A stretch of DNA of 50,952 nucleotides, from NCBI GenBank assembly GCA_900753285.1, contig CAADYN010000127.1, forward strand, positions 1 through 50,952, written 5' to 3'. Made by a program: the position numbers and the translations under genes. Below, piece after piece: positions 3,466-30,198 of this stretch; within the stretch, counting starts at the first letter, position 1, and every line of letters starts with the position of its first letter. The notes below the pieces were generated by a model. The model was given only the letters and a program-made list of their open reading frames with translations. It did no database searches and was not told where the DNA came from. This DNA comes from Clostridia bacterium (GTDB lineage: Bacteria > Bacillota > Clostridia > Oscillospirales > CAG-272).

Positions 3466-3618
3466 ATGAGTGAGTTCTTATTTTTCATTATTGGCACAAT
3501 GCTCGGCGGTCTGTTCGGTGTTGCGTGTATGTGTTGCTTGCAGATAAGCAGACTTTCCGAGAGAAAGGAAGTGGACAATGCGAAAAAGAAATGTGCAGAT
3601 ACTTTTCCGTCTGACTGA
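3466..3618 (+). CDS. Small membrane protein (DUF3789-like), 50 aa, not in the ORF track
   Basis: ATG 3466 lies 8 nt after AAAGGAG. MSEFLFFIIGTMLGGLFGVACMCCLQISRL... has one TM helix and overlaps the mobC start by 41 nt. It resembles small proteins seen before mobC in related ICEs (from memory). Confidence 0.45.
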   Translation: MSEFLFFIIGTMLGGLFGVACMCCLQISRLSERKEVDNAKKKCADTFPSD

Positions 3619-18582: not shown

Positions 18583-18777
18583 ATGCTGAGTATAAATTCC
18601 CAATGGATTTTATGTCCTCTTTGTGGGAACAAAACCCGAAACAAAATCAGAGAAGACACAGTTTTGAAAAACTATCCTCTTTACTGCCCGAAATGTAGAC
18701 AGGAAACTTTAATTGAAGTCGAGAATTTACAAGTAACCGTCATCAAAGAGCCAGACGCACAGACGCAGAGCCGATGA
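18583..18777 (+). CDS. Cysteine-rich KTR-domain protein (copy A)
   Basis: CPLCGNKTR...YCPKCRQET is a zinc-ribbon with the KTR signature. The start lies 2 nt after the C45 stop. Confidence 0.75.
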   Translation: MLSINSQWILCPLCGNKTRNKIREDTVLKNYPLYCPKCRQETLIEVENLQVTVIKEPDAQTQSR

Positions 18778-26111: not shown

Positions 26112-26282
26112 ATGATTTCAGAATGGATAATTTGCCCGATTTGTGGCAACAAAACCCGTGATAGAGTTAGAGAAGATACTGTTTTAAAGAATTATCCTCT
26201 TTACTGTCCGAAATGTAAGAAAGAAACTTTAATAAATGCAAAGAAATTACATATAACCGTCATCAAAGAGCCAGACGCATAG
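26112..26282 (+). CDS. Cysteine-rich KTR-domain protein (copy B, 56 aa, not in the ORF track)
   Basis: MISEWIICPICGNKTRDRVREDTVLKNYPLYCPKCKKETL...VIKEPDA. It ends at a TAG created by the single C/T difference within the 49 nt repeat. Confidence 0.75.
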   Translation: MISEWIICPICGNKTRDRVREDTVLKNYPLYCPKCKKETLINAKKLHITVIKEPDA

Positions 26283-26726: not shown

Positions 26727-26758
26727 ATCAATCTGAAATTTCAAAAATTCAGATTGAT
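26727..26758 (+). promoter_or_regulatory. 11 bp-arm inverted repeat directly abutting the sigma-gene RBS
   Basis: ATCAATCTGAA (26727-26737) pairs with TTCAGATTGAT (26748-26758). GGAGG is at 26760-26764. Confidence 0.45.
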
Positions 26759-26772
26759 TGGAGGAACAAAGA

Positions 26773-27249
26773 ATGAATGAAAAACATCCTAACCGAAAAA
26801 AGGACAAGCATAACCCTTATACGCTGATGATTGTAGAGGGCAGATATTACCTCTCTTTTAAAGATGGGCGGGGTGTTATGCAAAATATTGAAATAGAGAA
26901 AGTGCTGTATGACCTGTTTAACCGTTTTGAGCTTGAGGATATTTCCTATCTTAATCGGGTGAGCAGGCACATTGAACACTCCGAGTTGACAGAAAACTCC
27001 TTGAATGACCGAGTTTTTTATAAGGAAGAAAGTCTTGAGGAAACCGTTTCAAGGTGCATCGAATACGAACTGCTACATAAGGCAATATCAAAACTGCCCG
27101 AAACACAAAGACGCAGGCTGCTGTTGTACTTTTTCGGAGAGTTGTCCTATGAGCAGATTGCCAAGTTGGAGGGATGCACCAAAATGGCGGTTAAAGGAAG
27201 CGTTGACATTGCACTAAAGAAGTTAAAAAAACTTTTTGAAAAATTTTAA
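26773..27249 (+). CDS. Small sigma-70-family/ECF-like factor (mainly region 4)
   Basis: LPETQRRRLLLYFFGELSYEQIAKLEGCTKMAVKGSVDIALKKLKK is a sigma region-4 HTH. ATG follows GGAGG. Confidence 0.7.
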   Translation: MNEKHPNRKKDKHNPYTLMIVEGRYYLSFKDGRGVMQNIEIEKVLYDLFNRFELEDISYLNRVSRHIEHSELTENSLNDRVFYKEESLEETVSRCIEYELLHKAISKLPETQRRRLLLYFFGELSYEQIAKLEGCTKMAVKGSVDIALKKLKKLFEKF

Positions 27250-27280
27250 TTTTAGCCTATACGAAACCGCTTTTAAGTGA

Positions 27281-27322
27281 GCAAACAGGTGAGAGGGATT
27301 AAATTCCTTCCACCTGTTTTGC
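27281..27322 (+). terminator. Rho-independent terminator after the sigma gene
   Basis: GCAAACAGGTG (27281-27291) pairs with CACCTGTTTTGC (27311-27322), followed by TTTG. Confidence 0.7.
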
Positions 27323-27700
27323 TTTGTGTGGCGAAAACGGGAGTGATCCTTGACAACCGAATATCCATTCGCCAAATACTTCCTCTTTGTGATTGTGATG
27401 AGCATAAGCGTGTGCAGCGGTACGCCAAGACCTGTTAAGAAGCAGCGAGCGATGAAAGGGGGTGATCTCATTCATTACCGACTGAAAATATCGGATTGCT
27501 TCCGATTTCGCCATAACCCACAAAGAGAATAATGGTACTCCCGTCCAGTCACAGTCCGAGCGTGATAAAACCGTCGCAGGCAATGAGGGCGGCTCTGGCA
27601 GACCGTCAGAGGGGTGGAACTCCCGTGGTGTCAGTTCGCTACTGACCGTTTGGCGACTTCCCATAGCATTTCGGGGTGTCGAGGACAAATTGAAATGCTC
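27323..27700 (+). other. GC-rich ORF-free segment with many complementary blocks: candidate structured RNA of unknown class (strand not established)
   Basis: Hand counts give 62% and 60% GC for lines 27541 and 27601, against 28-37% for neighbouring cargo lines. No protein-like ORF is present. See the findings for the helix list. Confidence 0.3.
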
Positions 27701-27839
27701 CTATCATAAAGCCAGATAAAAGGTAGTCATAGGAACAGAGATTTTGTTTATACTCTCCCGACCTTAAATACTTCCTTTTGTTTGGCTGCCTACATAGGCA
27801 GAACATACCTGCCTAAATAAATCTGGGAGGTCAAACATA

Positions 27840-28205
27840 ATGGAAAGAAAAATCAAGCGTGGAGATATTTACTACGCAAATCTAAATCCTGTTATCGGCT
27901 CGGAGCAAGGCGGAACAAGACCTGTACTTATCATTTCAAACGATGTCGGCAATAAGCATAGCCCTACGGTCATTGTCGCACCCATCACAAGCCGAATACA
28001 CACTAAAGCAAAATTGCCGACACACACTTTAATCAATGATTTTGAAGGTTTGGATAAGAACTCAATTATCCTGTTTGAACAAATCCGCACCATAGACAAA
28101 CAACGCCTGCGTAAATATGTTGGTATGCTATCCACAGTCATAATGGCAAGAGCCGATAAAGCTCTTGCCATTAGTATTTCTTTGAGGGAGGTCAATAATG
28201 AATGA
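27840..28205 (+). CDS. mazF: MazF/PemK (EndoA-like) endoribonuclease toxin
   Basis: IKRGDIYYANLNPVIGSEQGGTRPVLIISNDVGNKHSPTVIVAPITS...KLPTHT...IILFEQIRTIDKQRL closely parallels B. subtilis EndoA/NdoA (from memory). GGGAGG RBS upstream. Confidence 0.9.
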   Translation: MERKIKRGDIYYANLNPVIGSEQGGTRPVLIISNDVGNKHSPTVIVAPITSRIHTKAKLPTHTLINDFEGLDKNSIILFEQIRTIDKQRLRKYVGMLSTVIMARADKALAISISLREVNNE

Positions 28206-28335
28206 AATTAAGGTAGATAAAAATGTAGCGGCTCTGAAACTCATTGAGATACTTCTTGAAAAAGGAATGATAAATCAAGCCACATATACAAATATCGTGA
28301 AACACGCAAATTCGCACATTTCACAGGCGGCTTGA
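28198..28335 (+). CDS. 45 aa ORF overlapping the mazF stop. It could be an atypical downstream antitoxin, or a recombinase accessory factor (RDF or TnpW-like).
   Basis: ATG 28198 lies 6 nt after GGGAGG (28186-28191), with an 8 nt overlap with mazF. Sequence MNEIKVDKNVAALKLIEILLEKGMINQATYTNIVKH is SHOCT-like and helical. It is not in the ORF track. Confidence 0.5.
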   Translation: MNEIKVDKNVAALKLIEILLEKGMINQATYTNIVKHANSHISQAA

Positions 28336-28380
28336 TAATCAGTACAATATATTCAGAAAAATGAATTGGAGGTATGCTTA

Positions 28381-30198
28381 ATGAACACAGCAGTAAATGA
28401 ATATAATTACAGATTTAAGCTCACAGATTATTCTCTGTTTGACAGAAACAGAGCCAGAAAAGTTGCTATTTATGGTCGTGTTTCAACAGAACACGAAGCA
28501 CAGTTATCTGCATTGGAAAATCAGTTACAATGGTATGATGACCAAGTAAAATATCATCCGAACTGGACGGTCTGTGAACGATATATTGATGAAGGTATCA
28601 CGGGAACACAGGCAAAAAAACGCCCTGCCTTTTTGAAAATGATTGAAGATGCCAAGCAAGGTAAATTTGATTTAATTGTTACCAGAGAGGTATGCCGTTT
28701 TGCACGAAATGTTGTGGATACCCTTGTTGTTACAAGAGAGTTAAAAGGCATAGGCGTTGAGGTGTTTTTTATCGACGATAATATTTGGACAATGGACGGA
28801 GATGGAGAACTGCGGCTATCTCTTATGGCAACATTGGCACAGGAAGAAAGTCGCAAGACTTCCGAGCGTGTAAAAGCAGGTCAGAAAATCAGCCGTGATA
28901 ATGGTGTTCTCTATGGAAACGGTAATATTTTAGGTTATGACCGTGTTGGAGATACCTATGTTATCAATGAGGAACAGGCAGAAACGGTCAGAATGATATA
29001 TGATTTGTATCTGCAAGGTTATGGCTCGATGAAAATCGCAAAGATTTTGACGGAGCGAAAAAGGAAAACAGCTTCTGGACTTATAAAGTGGAGCGTTTCA
29101 AATATTATGAGAGCGATTAAAAATGCCACTTACAAAGGAACAAAGTGTTACAACAAATCCAGAAGCAATAACTTTTTAGAGCAGAAGCGAATAAACAATC
29201 TTGATATGTCCACTTATGAATATGTTGAGGGTGATTTCCCTTCTATTATTTCTCAAGAGATATGGAATAAAGCACAGGCGATAAGGGAAAGTAGAGTAAA
29301 ACCTGTATGTGTATCGGCAGGGAAAAACACACATAGTAAGCGTGATTCACGAGATATATGGGTCAATAAGCTACGTTGTTCCTGCGGCTCATCATACCGT
29401 AAAAATAAATGGCATACGAAATTGGACGGAAAAACCTCTTACGGTTATCAATGCTACAATCAGCTTAACAACGGAATTAAACGGAAAAGAGCTGAAATCG
29501 GTTTAGATACTGAGGGATATTGTGACAGCAGAATGATAACCGATTGGAAACTCGATTTTATGGCAAAAGCTTTGTTAGAGCATCTCTGGACGGAGAGAAA
29601 AGAGTCTGTACTGATTGCGTTAGACCTTATTAAGTATTATTATAAGGAAGAAAAATCTAACGAAACTCAATCCGATACGGTAACGATACAGGCGAAATTG
29701 GATAAGGCAAATAGCAGACTGACTAACTTGATTGCTATGAGAGCTGATGGAGAGATTTCCAAGGACGAGTATCAAGCAATGAGAAGTCCTGTCGATGAAG
29801 AAATCAAGAAACTTCAAAAAGCACTTGATGAAATTCCACAGGAAAAAAGCAATCCGAAAGGATTGGATATAGAGGGTATCCGTTCCACTCTGAACAGCTT
29901 TATTGATTTTAGTGGTAGCACTATCAGCCACGATGTTGTCAATCAGTTTGTATATCTGATAACACCGACATCGGATACTACATTTGATTGGTATGTTAAT
30001 CTGAATGGGACAGCAGATGTGAAAGCAACCTTTACAGCGGAAGGCAGAAAGAAAAACTGCATTATCAAATTGGAGGAAATCGAAAAGATTTCCTCGGTAC
30101 ATAGGGAAAAGAATGAGGACAATGCTCATTTCATTAAAAACCCCCATATTTTTACCTATCTGCACAGGCTGCCCTCAGATAAGCTCGCGGCAAGCTGA
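28381..30198 (+). CDS. Large serine recombinase (ICE integrase)
   Basis: VAIYGRVSTEHEAQLSALENQ (catalytic Ser), VTREVCRFARN, a recombinase domain, a Cys-rich zinc ribbon (CSCGSSYRKNKW...YQCYNQ) and a coiled-coil C-terminus. ATG follows GGAGG. Confidence 0.9.
   Translation: MNTAVNEYNYRFKLTDYSLFDRNRARKVAIYGRVSTEHEAQLSALENQLQWYDDQVKYHPNWTVCERYIDEGITGTQAKKRPAFLKMIEDAKQGKFDLIVTREVCRFARNVVDTLVVTRELKGIGVEVFFIDDNIWTMDGDGELRLSLMATLAQEESRKTSERVKAGQKISRDNGVLYGNGNILGYDRVGDTYVINEEQAETVRMIYDLYLQGYGSMKIAKILTERKRKTASGLIKWSVSNIMRAIKNATYKGTKCYNKSRSNNFLEQKRINNLDMSTYEYVEGDFPSIISQEIWNKAQAIRESRVKPVCVSAGKNTHSKRDSRDIWVNKLRCSCGSSYRKNKWHTKLDGKTSYGYQCYNQLNNGIKRKRAEIGLDTEGYCDSRMITDWKLDFMAKALLEHLWTERKESVLIALDLIKYYYKEEKSNETQSDTVTIQAKLDKANSRLTNLIAMRADGEISKDEYQAMRSPVDEEIKKLQKALDEIPQEKSNPKGLDIEGIRSTLNSFIDFSGSTISHDVVNQFVYLITPTSDTTFDWYVNLNGTADVKATFTAEGRKKNCIIKLEEIEKISSVHREKNEDNAHFIKNPHIFTYLHRLPSDKLAAS

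What the first reader, a model, noticed from the sequence alone, without database searches (positions are those of the whole stretch)
27840..28335. MazF/EndoA-like toxin with no upstream antitoxin, and a tightly coupled 45-codon ORF overlapping its stop
Canonical mazEF/ndoAI-ndoA loci place the antitoxin directly upstream. Here every frame has a stop within about 45 nt upstream of the mazF ATG, for example the in-frame TAG at 27795. No RHH- or AbrB-like ORF exists anywhere in the 590 nt spacer.

Instead, a 45 aa ORF (28198-28335) begins 8 nt before the mazF stop, behind a strong GGGAGG, and runs up to the serine recombinase gene.

Three readings are possible:
- It is a reverse-order protein antitoxin.
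- The toxin is held in check by the upstream RNA region, in a type III-like arrangement.
- The small protein is a recombination directionality factor, and mazF acts as an addiction or abortive-infection module hard-wired to the integrase operon.

Any of these would be an atypical arrangement for a MazF toxin.
Basis: partly seen in the sequence, partly recalled or inferred. Interest (0 to 1): 0.7.

Follow-up and report, generated by a model that had tools for sequence, protein, structure and literature searches.

The report
Orphan MazF inside ICE recombination operon
An RNA-cutting MazF toxin with no partner antitoxin sits in a gut-Clostridia conjugative element between a conserved antiterminator-type leader RNA and the recombinase genes. 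The 45-codon gene after it travels with the recombinase, not with the toxin.

Summary
mazF (27840-28205) is intact, no antitoxin ORF lies upstream, and a conserved 45-aa ORF (28198-28335) overlaps its stop codon.

The 590-nt "spacer" is not empty. It is a large structured RNA (17 helices, strong covariation) containing the Rfam pemK motif (27529-27628). Its 5' domain (about 27345-27656) is homologous to canT, the processive RNA antiterminator shown experimentally between orf8 and xis of Tn916. Tn916 has no mazF, so this RNA is not a MazF-specific antitoxin.

Only the 3' leader part (27657-27839) is restricted to mazF-bearing loci. It holds an anti-SD, further helices and a conserved UACAU.

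The small ORF is under purifying selection (dN/dS about 0.2) and tracks the recombinase family:
- Homologues precede related serine recombinases in phage contigs that lack mazF.
- In sister elements with tyrosine integrases, the same slot after mazF holds an excisionase.

Best reading: an antitoxin-less MazF cassette sits in the recombination operon of a Tn916-type regulatory module. Its expression is gated by its leader and promoter. The small protein is a recombinase accessory. How the cell survives MazF remains untested.

The parts
26758..27249 (+). Sigma-70 region-4 protein. It is the Orf7-like regulator of the Tn916-type regulatory module.
   Evidence: PF08281/PF04545 and TIGR02937 hits. 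The same gene lies upstream of the leader in L007, L013, L021, L026, L098-L103 and in Tn916 on pCF10.
27283..27323 (+). Terminator-like hairpin with a T-run directly after the sigma gene.
   Evidence: Terminator scan. The hairpin is kept with compensatory changes in alignment A1.
27345..27656 (+). 5' domain of the structured leader RNA (helices 1-11). It is a homologue of the Tn916 canT processive antiterminator. Helix 1 (27369-27377 with 27648-27656) closes the domain.
   Evidence: RNAalifold and pair counts. The leader profile matches the Tn916 orf8-xis region with E=4e-23. canT was defined experimentally in PMC11658703.
27529..27628 (+). Rfam RF02913 'pemK RNA' motif (helices 7-10), the most conserved core of the leader.
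   Evidence: cmscan score of 52.2 bits against a gathering score of 34.8. The motif was found in 17 related mazF loci, and also in Tn916/pCF10 and in Vescimonas, which have no mazF.
27657..27839 (+). 3' leader domain found only in mazF-bearing loci:
- anti-SD CUUCCC, 27657-27662
- helices 13/14, 27669-27695
- long helix 15, 27710-27727 with 27770-27787
- UACAU, 27791-27795
- hairpin 17, 27795-27801 with 27809-27815
- SD GGGAGG, 27825-27830
   Evidence: Covariation in helices 13, 15 and 17. The domain is absent from Tn916 and L128 but present in L125 and L026, which carry mazF. UACAU is conserved at -49 to -53 in 19 of 20 loci, and is also present in L026 and L125.
27840..28205 (+). mazF/endoA-type endoribonuclease toxin gene, 121 aa, intact.
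   Evidence: PF02452 E=8.4e-37. Matches B. anthracis PemK, B. subtilis EndoA and S. aureus MazF structures at E about 1e-35 to 1e-37 in PDB, with conserved GSEQGGxRP and ITS blocks. dN/dS is 0.07-0.13.
28141..28183 (+). Perfect 13-bp hairpin plus T-run inside the 3' end of mazF. It is terminator-like.
   Evidence: Terminator scan. Kept in 8 of 13 ICE-type mazF genes, including at synonymous sites, and absent in L003, L017, L081, L021 and L026. Its function was not tested.
28198..28335 (+). 45-aa two-helix protein, weakly SHOCT-like. Its start overlaps the mazF stop. It is linked to the recombinase.
   Evidence: - 150 homologous protein clusters.
- dN/dS about 0.2 with dS up to 1.3.
- AlphaFold2 predicts a helical hairpin, pLDDT 84.
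- Homologues lie upstream of related recombinases without mazF.
28381..30198 (+). Large serine recombinase (605 aa from ATG 28381; SD GGAGG at 28368-28372).
   Evidence: PF00239 and PF07508 hits. Sequence read directly.

Best explanation
The locus is the regulatory and recombination end of an integrative conjugative element. Its gene order follows the Tn916 pattern: cysteine-rich KTR protein, Orf7-like sigma factor, structured leader RNA, recombination genes.

**Shown**
- The 5' two-thirds of the 'spacer' is a homologue of canT, the cis-acting processive antiterminator RNA of Tn916. Its conserved core is the Rfam pemK motif.
- mazF, together with about 180 nt of leader found only in mazF-bearing loci, lies between this RNA and the recombinase genes.
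- No MazE/PemI-type antitoxin is encoded next to mazF or anywhere in the window.
- The 45-aa ORF is a real gene. Its family co-varies with the serine-recombinase family and occurs with that family without mazF.

**Inferred**
- MazF is made only when the sigma-to-recombinase transcript is made, that is, in the minority of cells preparing to excise.
- MazF translation is damped by pairing of the conserved CUUCCC with its SD.
- MazF expression is probably self-tuned by cleavage at the conserved single-stranded UACAU, 45-49 nt upstream of the ATG.
- MazF then imposes transient growth arrest or mRNA remodelling coupled to excision and transfer, rather than forming a classical toxin-antitoxin pair.
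- The small protein acts with the recombinase as an accessory or directionality-type factor. It occupies the Xis slot.
For: **RNA**
- Rfam pemK hit.
- 107 pairs in 17 helices. 97.7% of cells are paired, against 43-48% when partners are slid. 43 pairs show double changes, against 8-11 in the slid controls. 0 of 500 shuffles reach the observed values.
- The leader core differs by only 9-17% between loci whose mazF synonymous sites differ by 39-74%.
- The same motif lies in Tn916 on pCF10, between the orf8-like gene and xis, with no mazF. The leader profile hits that region at E=4e-23.
- That Tn916 region is canT (PMC11658703).
- The only two Tyr codons of 'orf5' map to the first 9 nt of the motif. 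So the inactivating canT(S3) ATA-to-TGC change falls in its invariant stretch.

**No antitoxin**
-.
- As a control, 30 of 59 more distant MazF loci do have an EndoAI-type MazE directly upstream.

**MazF intact and selected**
-.

**Leader domain found only with mazF**
- It is absent in Tn916 and L128, and present in L026 and L125.
- UACAU is conserved even where the neighbouring hairpin sequence has changed.

**Small ORF**
- dN/dS about 0.2.
- Different small-ORF families accompany different recombinase families downstream of MazFs that are 71-86% identical.
- The slot holds Tn916-Xis (E=5e-17) in L014/L015 and an HTH_17 excisionase (E=2e-16) that overlaps the mazF stop in L026.
- Homologues (hhalign 96% and 93% probability) precede recombinases 55-69% identical in viral contigs. 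In L110-L123 neither mazF nor the leader is present. In L125 a Bro-N/ANT gene separates the two modules.
- In L086-L090 the 5' part of mazF and the leader are deleted, yet the small ORF and recombinase are intact.
Against: - Nothing here is experimental for this element. The transcription start, MazF toxicity and its cleavage specificity are inferred from about 60% identity to UACAU-specific MazFs.
- In every ICE with a type A or type B SHOCT-like ORF, that ORF overlaps the mazF stop codon. Translational coupling, and hence a second role towards MazF, cannot be excluded.
- The anti-SD/SD pairing shows no covariation, because both sides are constrained (helix 12).
- L021 lacks the UACAU segment, so that segment is dispensable there.
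- The small protein resembles no known RDF or any solved structure. From my own knowledge, TnpX/TndX-type clostridial recombinases need no RDF.
- No mechanism is shown that protects the host from leaky MazF.
Confidence: 0.6

Rival explanations
1. The 45-aa protein is a reverse-order protein antitoxin. It would be translationally coupled to MazF and would bind and neutralise it.
For: - The ATGAATGA overlap and strong SD.
- The same overlap for the type B SHOCT-like ORF (14 nt) in all contexts seen.
- The gene is under purifying selection.
- No other antitoxin candidate exists.
Against: - MazFs 71-86% identical are followed by unrelated small ORFs, an excisionase or a 92-nt gap.
- Homologues of the small ORF occur with related recombinases where no mazF exists.
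- It persists after mazF is deleted.
- It has no similarity to MazE.
- One MAG with identical mazF carries a nonsense codon at position 35 of the small ORF.
Confidence: 0.1
2. The upstream structured RNA is a type III-like RNA antitoxin, or a decoy, that binds MazF protein directly.
For: - A large, highly conserved RNA lies directly 5' of mazF on the same strand in every locus with enough upstream DNA.
- It contains a conserved MazF-type site, UACAU.
- The 3' domain is present only in mazF-bearing loci.
Against: - The conserved core is canT-homologous and occurs in Tn916 and Vescimonas without mazF.
- There is no tandem-repeat array as in ToxI.
- L013 carries a leader core 99% identical to the window next to a MazF that is only 76% identical. 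So the RNA core and the toxin do not co-evolve.
- A single-copy cis RNA cannot titrate many protein copies (inference).
Confidence: 0.08
3. MazF is neutralised in trans. The neutraliser would be a chromosomal MazE of the host, or an unrecognised antitoxin elsewhere on the element or beyond the window.
For: - This MazF is 55-67% identical to chromosomal EndoA-type MazFs, 30 of which have MazE. Cross-neutralisation is therefore conceivable.
- The left end of the element may lie outside the window.
Against: - No MazE-like ORF occurs in 51 kb.
- About 25 chromosomal mazF loci, mostly Lachnospiraceae and other Clostridia, themselves lack mazE. The likely host range therefore offers no dependable MazE.
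- A broad-host-range ICE depending on a host antitoxin would be fragile (inference).
Confidence: 0.15
4. MazF has been repurposed as a dedicated RNA-processing enzyme of the element. It would, for example, cut the long polycistronic transcript at the conserved UACAU to separate the antiterminator RNA from the coding part or to unmask the SD. It would have little general toxicity.
For: - UACAU is conserved at a fixed position, single-stranded, just 5' of a covarying hairpin. It is kept in the divergent L026 and L125.
- No UACAU occurs inside any of the 20 mazF coding sequences.
- The anti-SD lies upstream of the cut site and the SD downstream of it.
Against: - Catalytic and RNA-binding blocks are the same as in toxic MazFs.
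- UACAU is not depleted from the element's other genes, with 20 observed against 24 expected. Off-target cutting is therefore expected.
- L021 lacks the site.
Confidence: 0.15

Closest known systems
canT, the processive RNA antiterminator of Tn916 (Wirachman & Grossman 2024, PMC11658703)
   Same: - Same position and orientation: after the orf7/orf8-type regulators and before the recombination genes.
- About 300 nt of sequence homology (nhmmer E=4e-23).
- The same Rfam core motif.
- Helix 1 is kept through compensatory changes.
   Different: - Here the RNA is followed by an extra 3' domain of about 180 nt and by mazF, not directly by xis.
- The recombinase is a serine recombinase.
- The conjugation module is of another type (MobA/VirD2 relaxase).
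- Antitermination by this copy is untested.
Rfam RF02913 pemK RNA motif (from the 224-candidate-RNA study, PMC5737381)
   Same: The window scores 52.2 bits over all 61 model positions. It lies 5' of a pemK/mazF gene, as the family name implies.
   Different: - The Rfam model covers only helices 7-10 of a 17-helix conserved structure.
- Rfam labels it cis-regulatory with no mechanism.
- In the papers I could search, nothing links it to canT.
B. subtilis EndoA/MazF with EndoAI/MazE (ndoAI-ndoA), and S. aureus and B. anthracis MazF/PemK
   Same: About 60% identity over the whole toxin, with the conserved RNA-binding and catalytic blocks.
   Different: - There is no upstream RHH MazE with the GYxEMxxIN C-terminus. 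The control loci have one.
- The gene is embedded in a mobile-element recombination operon, not downstream of alr.
Type III toxin-antitoxin systems (ToxIN). This comparison rests on my own knowledge.
   Same: An endoribonuclease toxin gene is preceded on the same strand by a non-coding RNA.
   Different: - There is no tandem repeat array.
- The RNA core exists without the toxin in Tn916.
- ToxN is a different family from PF02452.
Xis/excisionase slot of Tn916-family elements, and small RDFs of large serine recombinases such as TP901-1 Orf7 and SPbeta SprB. The RDF examples rest on my own knowledge.
   Same: A small gene lies immediately 5' of the recombinase gene in the same operon. In L014, L015 and L026 the homologous slot after mazF holds a Tn916-Xis or HTH_17 protein.
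   Different: - The 45-aa protein is a two-helix hairpin with a sub-threshold SHOCT_2 match.
- It has no similarity to known excisionases or RDFs.
- Its function is untested.
ICE-linked growth arrest and stabilisation: Tn916 activation arrests growth (PMC9632896). mosAT of SXT is cited from my own knowledge.
   Same: A growth-inhibiting function is expressed together with excision or transfer genes of an ICE.
   Different: - mosAT is a two-protein TA pair.
- The Tn916 arrest does not involve MazF.
- Here the toxin has no protein partner.

Membership tests
MazF/PemK endoribonuclease toxin (PF02452) | Domain match above the curated threshold | tested here: met
   126.2 bits against a gathering score of 23.1, covering profile positions 1-108 of 109.
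MazF/PemK endoribonuclease toxin (PF02452) | Catalytic Arg and Thr (R25/T48 of B. subtilis MazF, numbering from my own knowledge) and the RNA-binding blocks | tested here: met
   The alignment to 4hke and 7bxy shows GSEQGGtRPVL and APITS aligned with GSEQGGVRPVL and AAITA.
MazF/PemK endoribonuclease toxin (PF02452) | Sequence-specific RNA cleavage and growth inhibition | not testable with these tools
   Requires expression and primer-extension assays.
Type II mazEF/pemIK toxin-antitoxin operon | Cognate protein antitoxin gene adjacent to the toxin, normally upstream | tested here: not met
   - No Pfam hit for any spacer ORF.
- The MazE profile finds nothing in the window.
- Stops close all three frames within 45 nt of the ATG.
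- The downstream ORF tracks the recombinase, not MazF.
Type III toxin-antitoxin (ToxIN-like) | Antitoxin is an array of tandem RNA repeats upstream of the toxin | tested here: not met
   TRF and the direct-repeat search find no array in 27200-27840.
Type III toxin-antitoxin (ToxIN-like) | The RNA is dedicated to the toxin and always co-occurs with it | tested here: not met
   The RNA core is present in Tn916/pCF10 and in the Vescimonas plasmid, both without mazF.
Rfam RF02913 pemK RNA | Covariance-model score at or above the gathering score | tested here: met
   52.2 bits against 34.8, full-length match to positions 1-61.
Rfam RF02913 pemK RNA | Structure supported by covariation in related sequences | tested here: met
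   Helices 7-9 show compensatory changes, for example UA11/CG5 and UA11/GU4/AU1.
canT-type processive antiterminator RNA of Tn916-family ICEs | Homology to the experimentally defined canT region | tested here: met
   nhmmer E=4e-23 over L127 3304-3600. Rfam motif at L127 3501-3601. canT is defined as the 452 nt between orf8 and xis.
canT-type processive antiterminator RNA of Tn916-family ICEs | Location downstream of the orf7-type promoter and regulators and upstream of the recombination genes, in the same orientation | tested here: met
   Sigma gene 26758-27249, RNA 27345-27656, recombinase 28381-30198, all on the + strand.
canT-type processive antiterminator RNA of Tn916-family ICEs | Makes RNA polymerase read through terminators in cis | not testable with these tools
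   Needs a terminator-lacZ reporter as in PMC11658703. A terminator-like hairpin at 28141-28183 is a candidate target.
Recombination directionality factor / recombinase accessory protein | Co-occurs with its recombinase family independently of neighbouring cargo | tested here: met
   - Homologues lie upstream of recombinases 55-69% identical in L110-L123 and L125.
- Retained after mazF deletion.
- Absent where the recombinase family differs.
Recombination directionality factor / recombinase accessory protein | Binds the recombinase and switches or assists excision versus integration | not testable with these tools
   - No co-folding tool was available.
- No fusion proteins appear among 122 representative clusters.
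SHOCT domain (PF09851 / PF20612) | Domain match above the curated threshold | tested here: inconclusive
   - Window ORF: SHOCT_2 at 17.4 bits, below the 24-bit threshold, E=0.005.
- Type B ORFs: E=1.6e-5, and NCBI names them SHOCT domain-containing.
- hhalign of type A against type B gives only 5% probability.

The most novel reading that the evidence does not exclude
The mazF cassette consists of the 3' leader domain (anti-SD, conserved single-stranded UACAU) plus mazF. It could be a self-processing toxin switch that needs no protein antitoxin.

Once some MazF is made, it would cut its own leader at UACAU. That cut separates the anti-SD, and the canT antiterminator RNA, from the downstream message. 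MazF level would thereby feed back on translation of mazF and the recombinase genes, and possibly on canT-dependent read-through into the transfer genes. Growth arrest would then be coupled to the excision and transfer decision of the element.
Probability: 0.2. Interest if true: 0.8.

Novelty: new member of a known kind. Interest (0 to 1): 0.5.

Why it matters
**1. pemK motif and canT.** The analysis ties a database RNA of unknown function (Rfam pemK, 2017) to canT of Tn916 (2024), an experimentally defined processive antiterminator. The canT authors state that they did not pursue structural analysis. The covariation-supported 17-helix model and the diverse homologues found here give that work a structural basis. 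They also show that canT-type RNAs extend well beyond classical Tn916, into gut Clostridia ICEs with serine recombinases and into phage-like contigs.

**2. MazF without MazE.** An intact, strongly selected EndoA-type MazF lacks any protein antitoxin in many mobile elements. It also lacks one in about 25 chromosomal loci, mostly Lachnospiraceae and other Clostridia. How such cells tolerate MazF is an open question that can be tested directly.

**3. A new recombinase-linked gene family.** The analysis defines a family of roughly 45-aa, stand-alone two-helix proteins (about 120 clusters at 50% identity) as a companion of one clade of large serine recombinases. This is a candidate accessory or directionality factor of practical interest for recombinase tools.

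Tried and rejected
- **Literature on the pemK motif.** The main text of the 2017 paper does not mention it, and no supplement is held.
- **Similarity of the small ORF to known proteins.**
  - NCBIfam, PADLOC and the isolated-phage collection gave nothing; PHROGs gave only a weak match to an unknown-function family (E=0.029).
  - Foldseek against PDB gave no hit with E<1.
  - PDB sequence hits to designer PPR proteins are an artefact of summing many weak repeat matches; each stretch has an i-Evalue above 100.
- **Rosetta-stone fusions** of the small ORF to a recombinase or MazF. None appear among 122 representative clusters.
- **Homology of type A and type B small ORFs.** Not supported by hhalign (5% probability), although both weakly match SHOCT.
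- **A real protein gene on the minus strand over the RNA**, like 'orf5' of Tn916. Open stretches vary from 51 to 118 aa between loci, and the Tn916 paper shows orf5 is not a functional ORF.
- **Depletion of UACAU from the element as self-protection.** Not seen: 20 observed against 24 expected.
- **TTGACA at 27350 as the leader promoter.** Rejected, because the covarying helix 1 starts at 27369 and so must lie within the transcript.
- **Co-folding MazF with the small protein.** Not possible with the single-chain tool.
Full report
**Observation.** The sequence is as described. mazF runs from 27840 to 28205 and encodes 121 aa. It matches PF02452 with E=8.4e-37. It aligns over its whole length with the solved structures of B. 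anthracis PemK, B. subtilis EndoA and S. aureus MazF at E of 1e-35 to 1e-37, with the GSEQGGxRP and ITS blocks conserved.

Stops close all three frames within 45 nt upstream of the ATG: TAG at 27795, TAA at 27814 and TAA at 27818. The 45-aa ORF starts at 28198 inside the overlap ATGAATGA, behind GAGGGAGG, and ends at 28335. The serine recombinase most likely starts at ATG 28381, behind GGAGG at 28368-28372.

No ORF in the 590-nt spacer, on either strand, has a Pfam hit. I built a profile from 28 EndoAI-type MazE proteins found directly upstream of more distant MazF relatives. It detects MazE in 30 of 59 such control loci but nothing significant anywhere in the window; the best hit had E=0.29. 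The only RHH protein on the element is the NikA/MobC protein next to the relaxase.

**Context.** Positions 1 to about 30200 of the window are an integrative conjugative element. It encodes a Toprim/DUF3991 primase, a MobA/VirD2 relaxase, a coupling protein, a VirB4-type ATPase, PrgI, a lysozyme/CHAP hydrolase, and cargo transporters with a two-component system. It ends with the module cysteine-rich KTR protein - sigma-70 region-4 protein - spacer - mazF - small ORF - recombinase.

**The spacer is a large structured RNA.** Rfam finds RF02913 (pemK RNA) at 27529-27628, at 52.2 bits against a gathering score of 34.8. Among 80 genomic loci with MazF relatives, those at 58-100% identity carry the same motif roughly 130-230 nt upstream of mazF whenever enough upstream DNA is present. 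That is 14 of 15 among L001-L020, plus L021 and L026. The exception, L014, has a deletion that fuses the sigma gene to the middle of the motif.

The whole interval from the sigma gene to mazF aligns across loci, with nhmmer E below 1e-170. RNAalifold on 16 leaders predicts 107 pairs in 17 helices. Counting pairs on that structure gives the following:
- 97.7% of cells are paired, against 43-48% when the partners are slid.
- 43 pairs have changes on both sides, against 8-11 in the slid controls.
- 0 of 500 shuffles reach the observed values.

Many pairs alternate G-C, G-U and A-U in a way that makes sense only for the + strand. A long-range helix (27369-27377 with 27648-27656) switches between G-C and A-U in half of the sequences. 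It encloses a domain whose core is the Rfam motif.

The leader core differs by only 9-17% between loci whose mazF genes differ at 39-74% of synonymous sites. It is therefore under much stronger constraint than silent sites. No reading frame is consistently open across it.

**The RNA core is canT.** A blastn search of plasmids matched the motif region in 28 Enterococcus plasmids, among others. In pCF10 the match lies in Tn916/Tn925, between the orf8-like HTH gene and xis, with no mazF. Rfam scores that copy at 55 bits, and the leader profile matches about 300 nt there at E=4e-23.

Wirachman and Grossman (PMC11658703) showed that exactly this 452-nt orf8-xis region is canT. It is an orientation-specific, cis-acting, processive RNA antiterminator required for transcription from Porf7 to pass the element's terminators after excision. 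They also showed that the overlapping 'orf5' is not a functional gene. The paper does not mention Rfam or pemK and states that structure was not pursued.

The only two tyrosine codons of orf5 correspond to ATA at positions 1-3 and 7-9 of the Rfam match. So the inactivating canT(S3) change (ATA to TGC, designed against a tyrosine) falls in the motif's invariant 5' stretch.

Alignments with Tn916, a Vescimonas plasmid and a phage-like contig keep helix 1 through fully compensatory changes:
- window: TCGCCAAAT / GTTTGGCGA
- Tn916: ATCGAAT / GTTCGAT
- Vescimonas: CAAAGGAC / GTCCTTTG

I therefore read 27345-27656 as a canT homologue. This is homology and position; antitermination by this copy is inferred.

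**A leader extension found only with mazF.** Tn916 and the Vescimonas copy lack everything 3' of helix 1 that the mazF loci share. The shared elements are:
- CUUCCC (27657-27662), complementary to the mazF SD
- the invariant GGGGUGUCGAGGACAAAU hairpins (helices 13/14)
- a covarying 17-bp helix 15
- UACAU at 27791-27795
- a covarying hairpin (helix 17)

UACAU is the site cut by B. subtilis and S. aureus MazF (my own knowledge). It occurs at -49 to -53 from the ATG in 19 of 20 ICE-type loci. It is retained in the divergent L026 and L125, where the neighbouring hairpin has a different sequence. It is absent from all 20 mazF coding sequences. L021 lacks this segment.

The inserted unit therefore looks like 'the 3' leader domain plus mazF'. 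That this domain damps or tunes MazF expression is an inference. The SD pairing cannot show covariation, because both sides are constrained.

**The small ORF belongs to the recombinase.** It is a real gene:
- It has 150 homologous clusters down to 69% identity.
- dN/dS is about 0.2 with dS up to 1.3.
- The core AALKLIEILLE.G.INQATY.NI and the tail HISQAA are invariant.
- AlphaFold2 predicts a two-helix hairpin with pLDDT 84.

Downstream of MazFs that are 71-86% identical, the small ORF differs according to the recombinase family:

| Loci | ORF after mazF | Recombinase |
|---|---|---|
| window, L001, L002, L017, L020 (type A) | the 45-aa family | 82-100% identical to the window's |
| L009-L011, L013, L018 (type B) | 52-aa protein that NCBI names SHOCT domain-containing | about 31% identical |
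| L004-L008, L019 (type C) | unrelated 48-49-aa ORF, 92 nt after mazF | about 26% identical |
| L014, L015 | Tn916-Xis (E=5e-17) | tyrosine integrase |
| L026 | HTH_17 excisionase (E=2e-16) whose ATG overlaps the mazF stop | tyrosine integrase |

In IMG/VR contigs, recombinases 55-56% identical to the window's are preceded by a clear homologue of the 45-aa ORF (hhalign 96% probability, E=1e-9). That homologue follows a dUTPase-like gene (judged from its sequence by eye, not tested), with no mazF and no leader. In L125 the leader plus mazF and the small ORF plus recombinase are separated by a Bro-N/ANT gene. In L086-L090 a deletion removed the leader and the 5' part of mazF but left the small ORF and recombinase intact.

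Two modules are thus separable: RNA plus mazF, and small ORF plus recombinase. What the small protein does is unknown. It matches no RDF, excisionase or solved fold, and it is never fused to another domain among 122 representative clusters.

**How it most likely works.**

Shown:
- an intact, selected MazF with no MazE/PemI-type antitoxin gene beside it or elsewhere in the window
- a canT-homologous RNA upstream
- a leader extension found only in mazF-bearing loci
- a recombinase-linked small gene downstream

Inferred:
- Transcription entering from the sigma-gene region passes the canT-like RNA, then mazF, the small ORF and the recombinase gene. MazF is therefore made together with the recombination functions in the few cells that activate the element.
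- Its translation is restrained by the structured 3' leader and probably tuned by self-cleavage at UACAU.
- The result is transient growth arrest or transcript remodelling coupled to excision and transfer.

Growth arrest on activation is documented for Tn916 itself, by other genes (PMC9632896). I put 0.6 on this composite reading. The identity claims are much firmer than the physiological ones.

**Rivals.**
- A reverse-order antitoxin (0.1) is kept alive only by the constant stop/start overlap.
- A type III-like RNA antitoxin (0.08) is contradicted by the presence of the RNA in Tn916 without mazF, by the absence of repeats and by the L013 mosaic.
- A trans-acting host MazE (0.15) is weakened because about 25 of the more distant chromosomal loci, mostly Lachnospiraceae and other Clostridia, lack mazE. 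In the two inspected, mazF lies directly after alr.
- A repurposed processing enzyme (0.15) fits the UACAU conservation but not the lack of UACAU depletion elsewhere in the element.

**Novelty and score.** The arrangement is atypical for MazF, but it is widespread and implicit in the Rfam pemK family. The same gene order is listed, without comment, for a C. difficile island (PMC6814731). The locus is therefore a new member of a known kind.

The added value is threefold:
- the link between the pemK motif and canT, with a covariation-backed structure
- the modular dissection that assigns the small ORF to the recombinase
- a clear statement of the open question of how an antitoxin-less MazF is tolerated

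Interest: 0.5.

Noticed in passing
L044 2749-4342; L039 2500-4351; also L022, L030, L036, L041, L045, L048, L054, L058, L074 and others: About 25 chromosomal EndoA-type mazF loci, mostly from Lachnospiraceae and other Clostridia, have no mazE and no pemK RNA. In the two inspected (Faecalimonas L044, Mediterraneibacter L039), mazF lies directly after alr, with a gap of 55-95 nt. Antitoxin-less MazF therefore seems common in this group.
   Followed up: partly
L127 (pCF10 / Tn916) 3501-3601: The Rfam pemK motif lies inside canT of Tn916. Both Tyr codons of the discredited 'orf5' map to the first 9 nt of the motif. So the published canT(S3) mutation hits the motif's invariant stretch. The canT paper does not mention Rfam or pemK.
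   Followed up: yes
window 28141-28183: A perfect 13-bp hairpin followed by a T-run lies inside the last 65 nt of mazF, just before the SD of the small ORF. It is kept in 8 of 13 ICE-type mazF genes, including at synonymous positions, and is absent in L003, L017, L081, L021 and L026. It could be an internal terminator that only canT-modified polymerase passes.
   Followed up: partly
window 28320-28348: The best sigma-70-like promoter match of the region (TTCACA, 17 nt, TACAAT; 10 of 12) lies at the end of the small ORF, just upstream of the recombinase SD. It is a possible separate recombinase promoter.
   Followed up: no
L001 637-771: A MAG with mazF and recombinase 100% identical to the window has a nonsense codon (AAA to TAA) at codon 35 of the small ORF.
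   Followed up: no
L013 2457-3900: Mosaic locus. The sigma gene (98% protein identity) and the leader core (99%) are nearly identical to the window, but mazF differs at 65% of synonymous sites. This points to a recombination breakpoint between the canT-like domain and mazF.
   Followed up: partly
L128 3503-3853 (Vescimonas plasmid NZ_AP023416.1): The gene annotated as 'transposon-encoded TnpW family protein' starts 3 nt into the pemK/canT motif and overlaps all of it. The 5' part of that ORF call may be spurious.
   Followed up: no
window 27374-27387, 27655-27662, 27766-27779: The leader holds three copies of an ACUUCC (anti-SD-like) motif. Two of them lie in a 14-nt direct repeat, AAATACTTCCTYTT.
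   Followed up: no
L110-L118, about 2757-2885: In these viral contigs the small-ORF homologue has lost its GTG start through a 1-nt insertion relative to L119. The rest stays open and 65% identical, so it may use another start codon or be decaying.
   Followed up: no
L127 2052-2281; L020 4201-4285; L026 2414-2505; L014 1198-1245: Other Rfam RNAs lie near these elements: SQ2397 (RF03532) next to the orf9-type HTH gene of Tn916, c-di-GMP-I riboswitches in L020 and L026, and a uup RNA in L014.
   Followed up: no
window 18583-18777 and 26112-26282: The element carries two copies of a cysteine-rich KTR zinc-ribbon gene. The second matches PF14205; the first was judged by sequence similarity only. 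One copy follows each cargo block, as the single copy follows tet(M) in Tn916.
   Followed up: no
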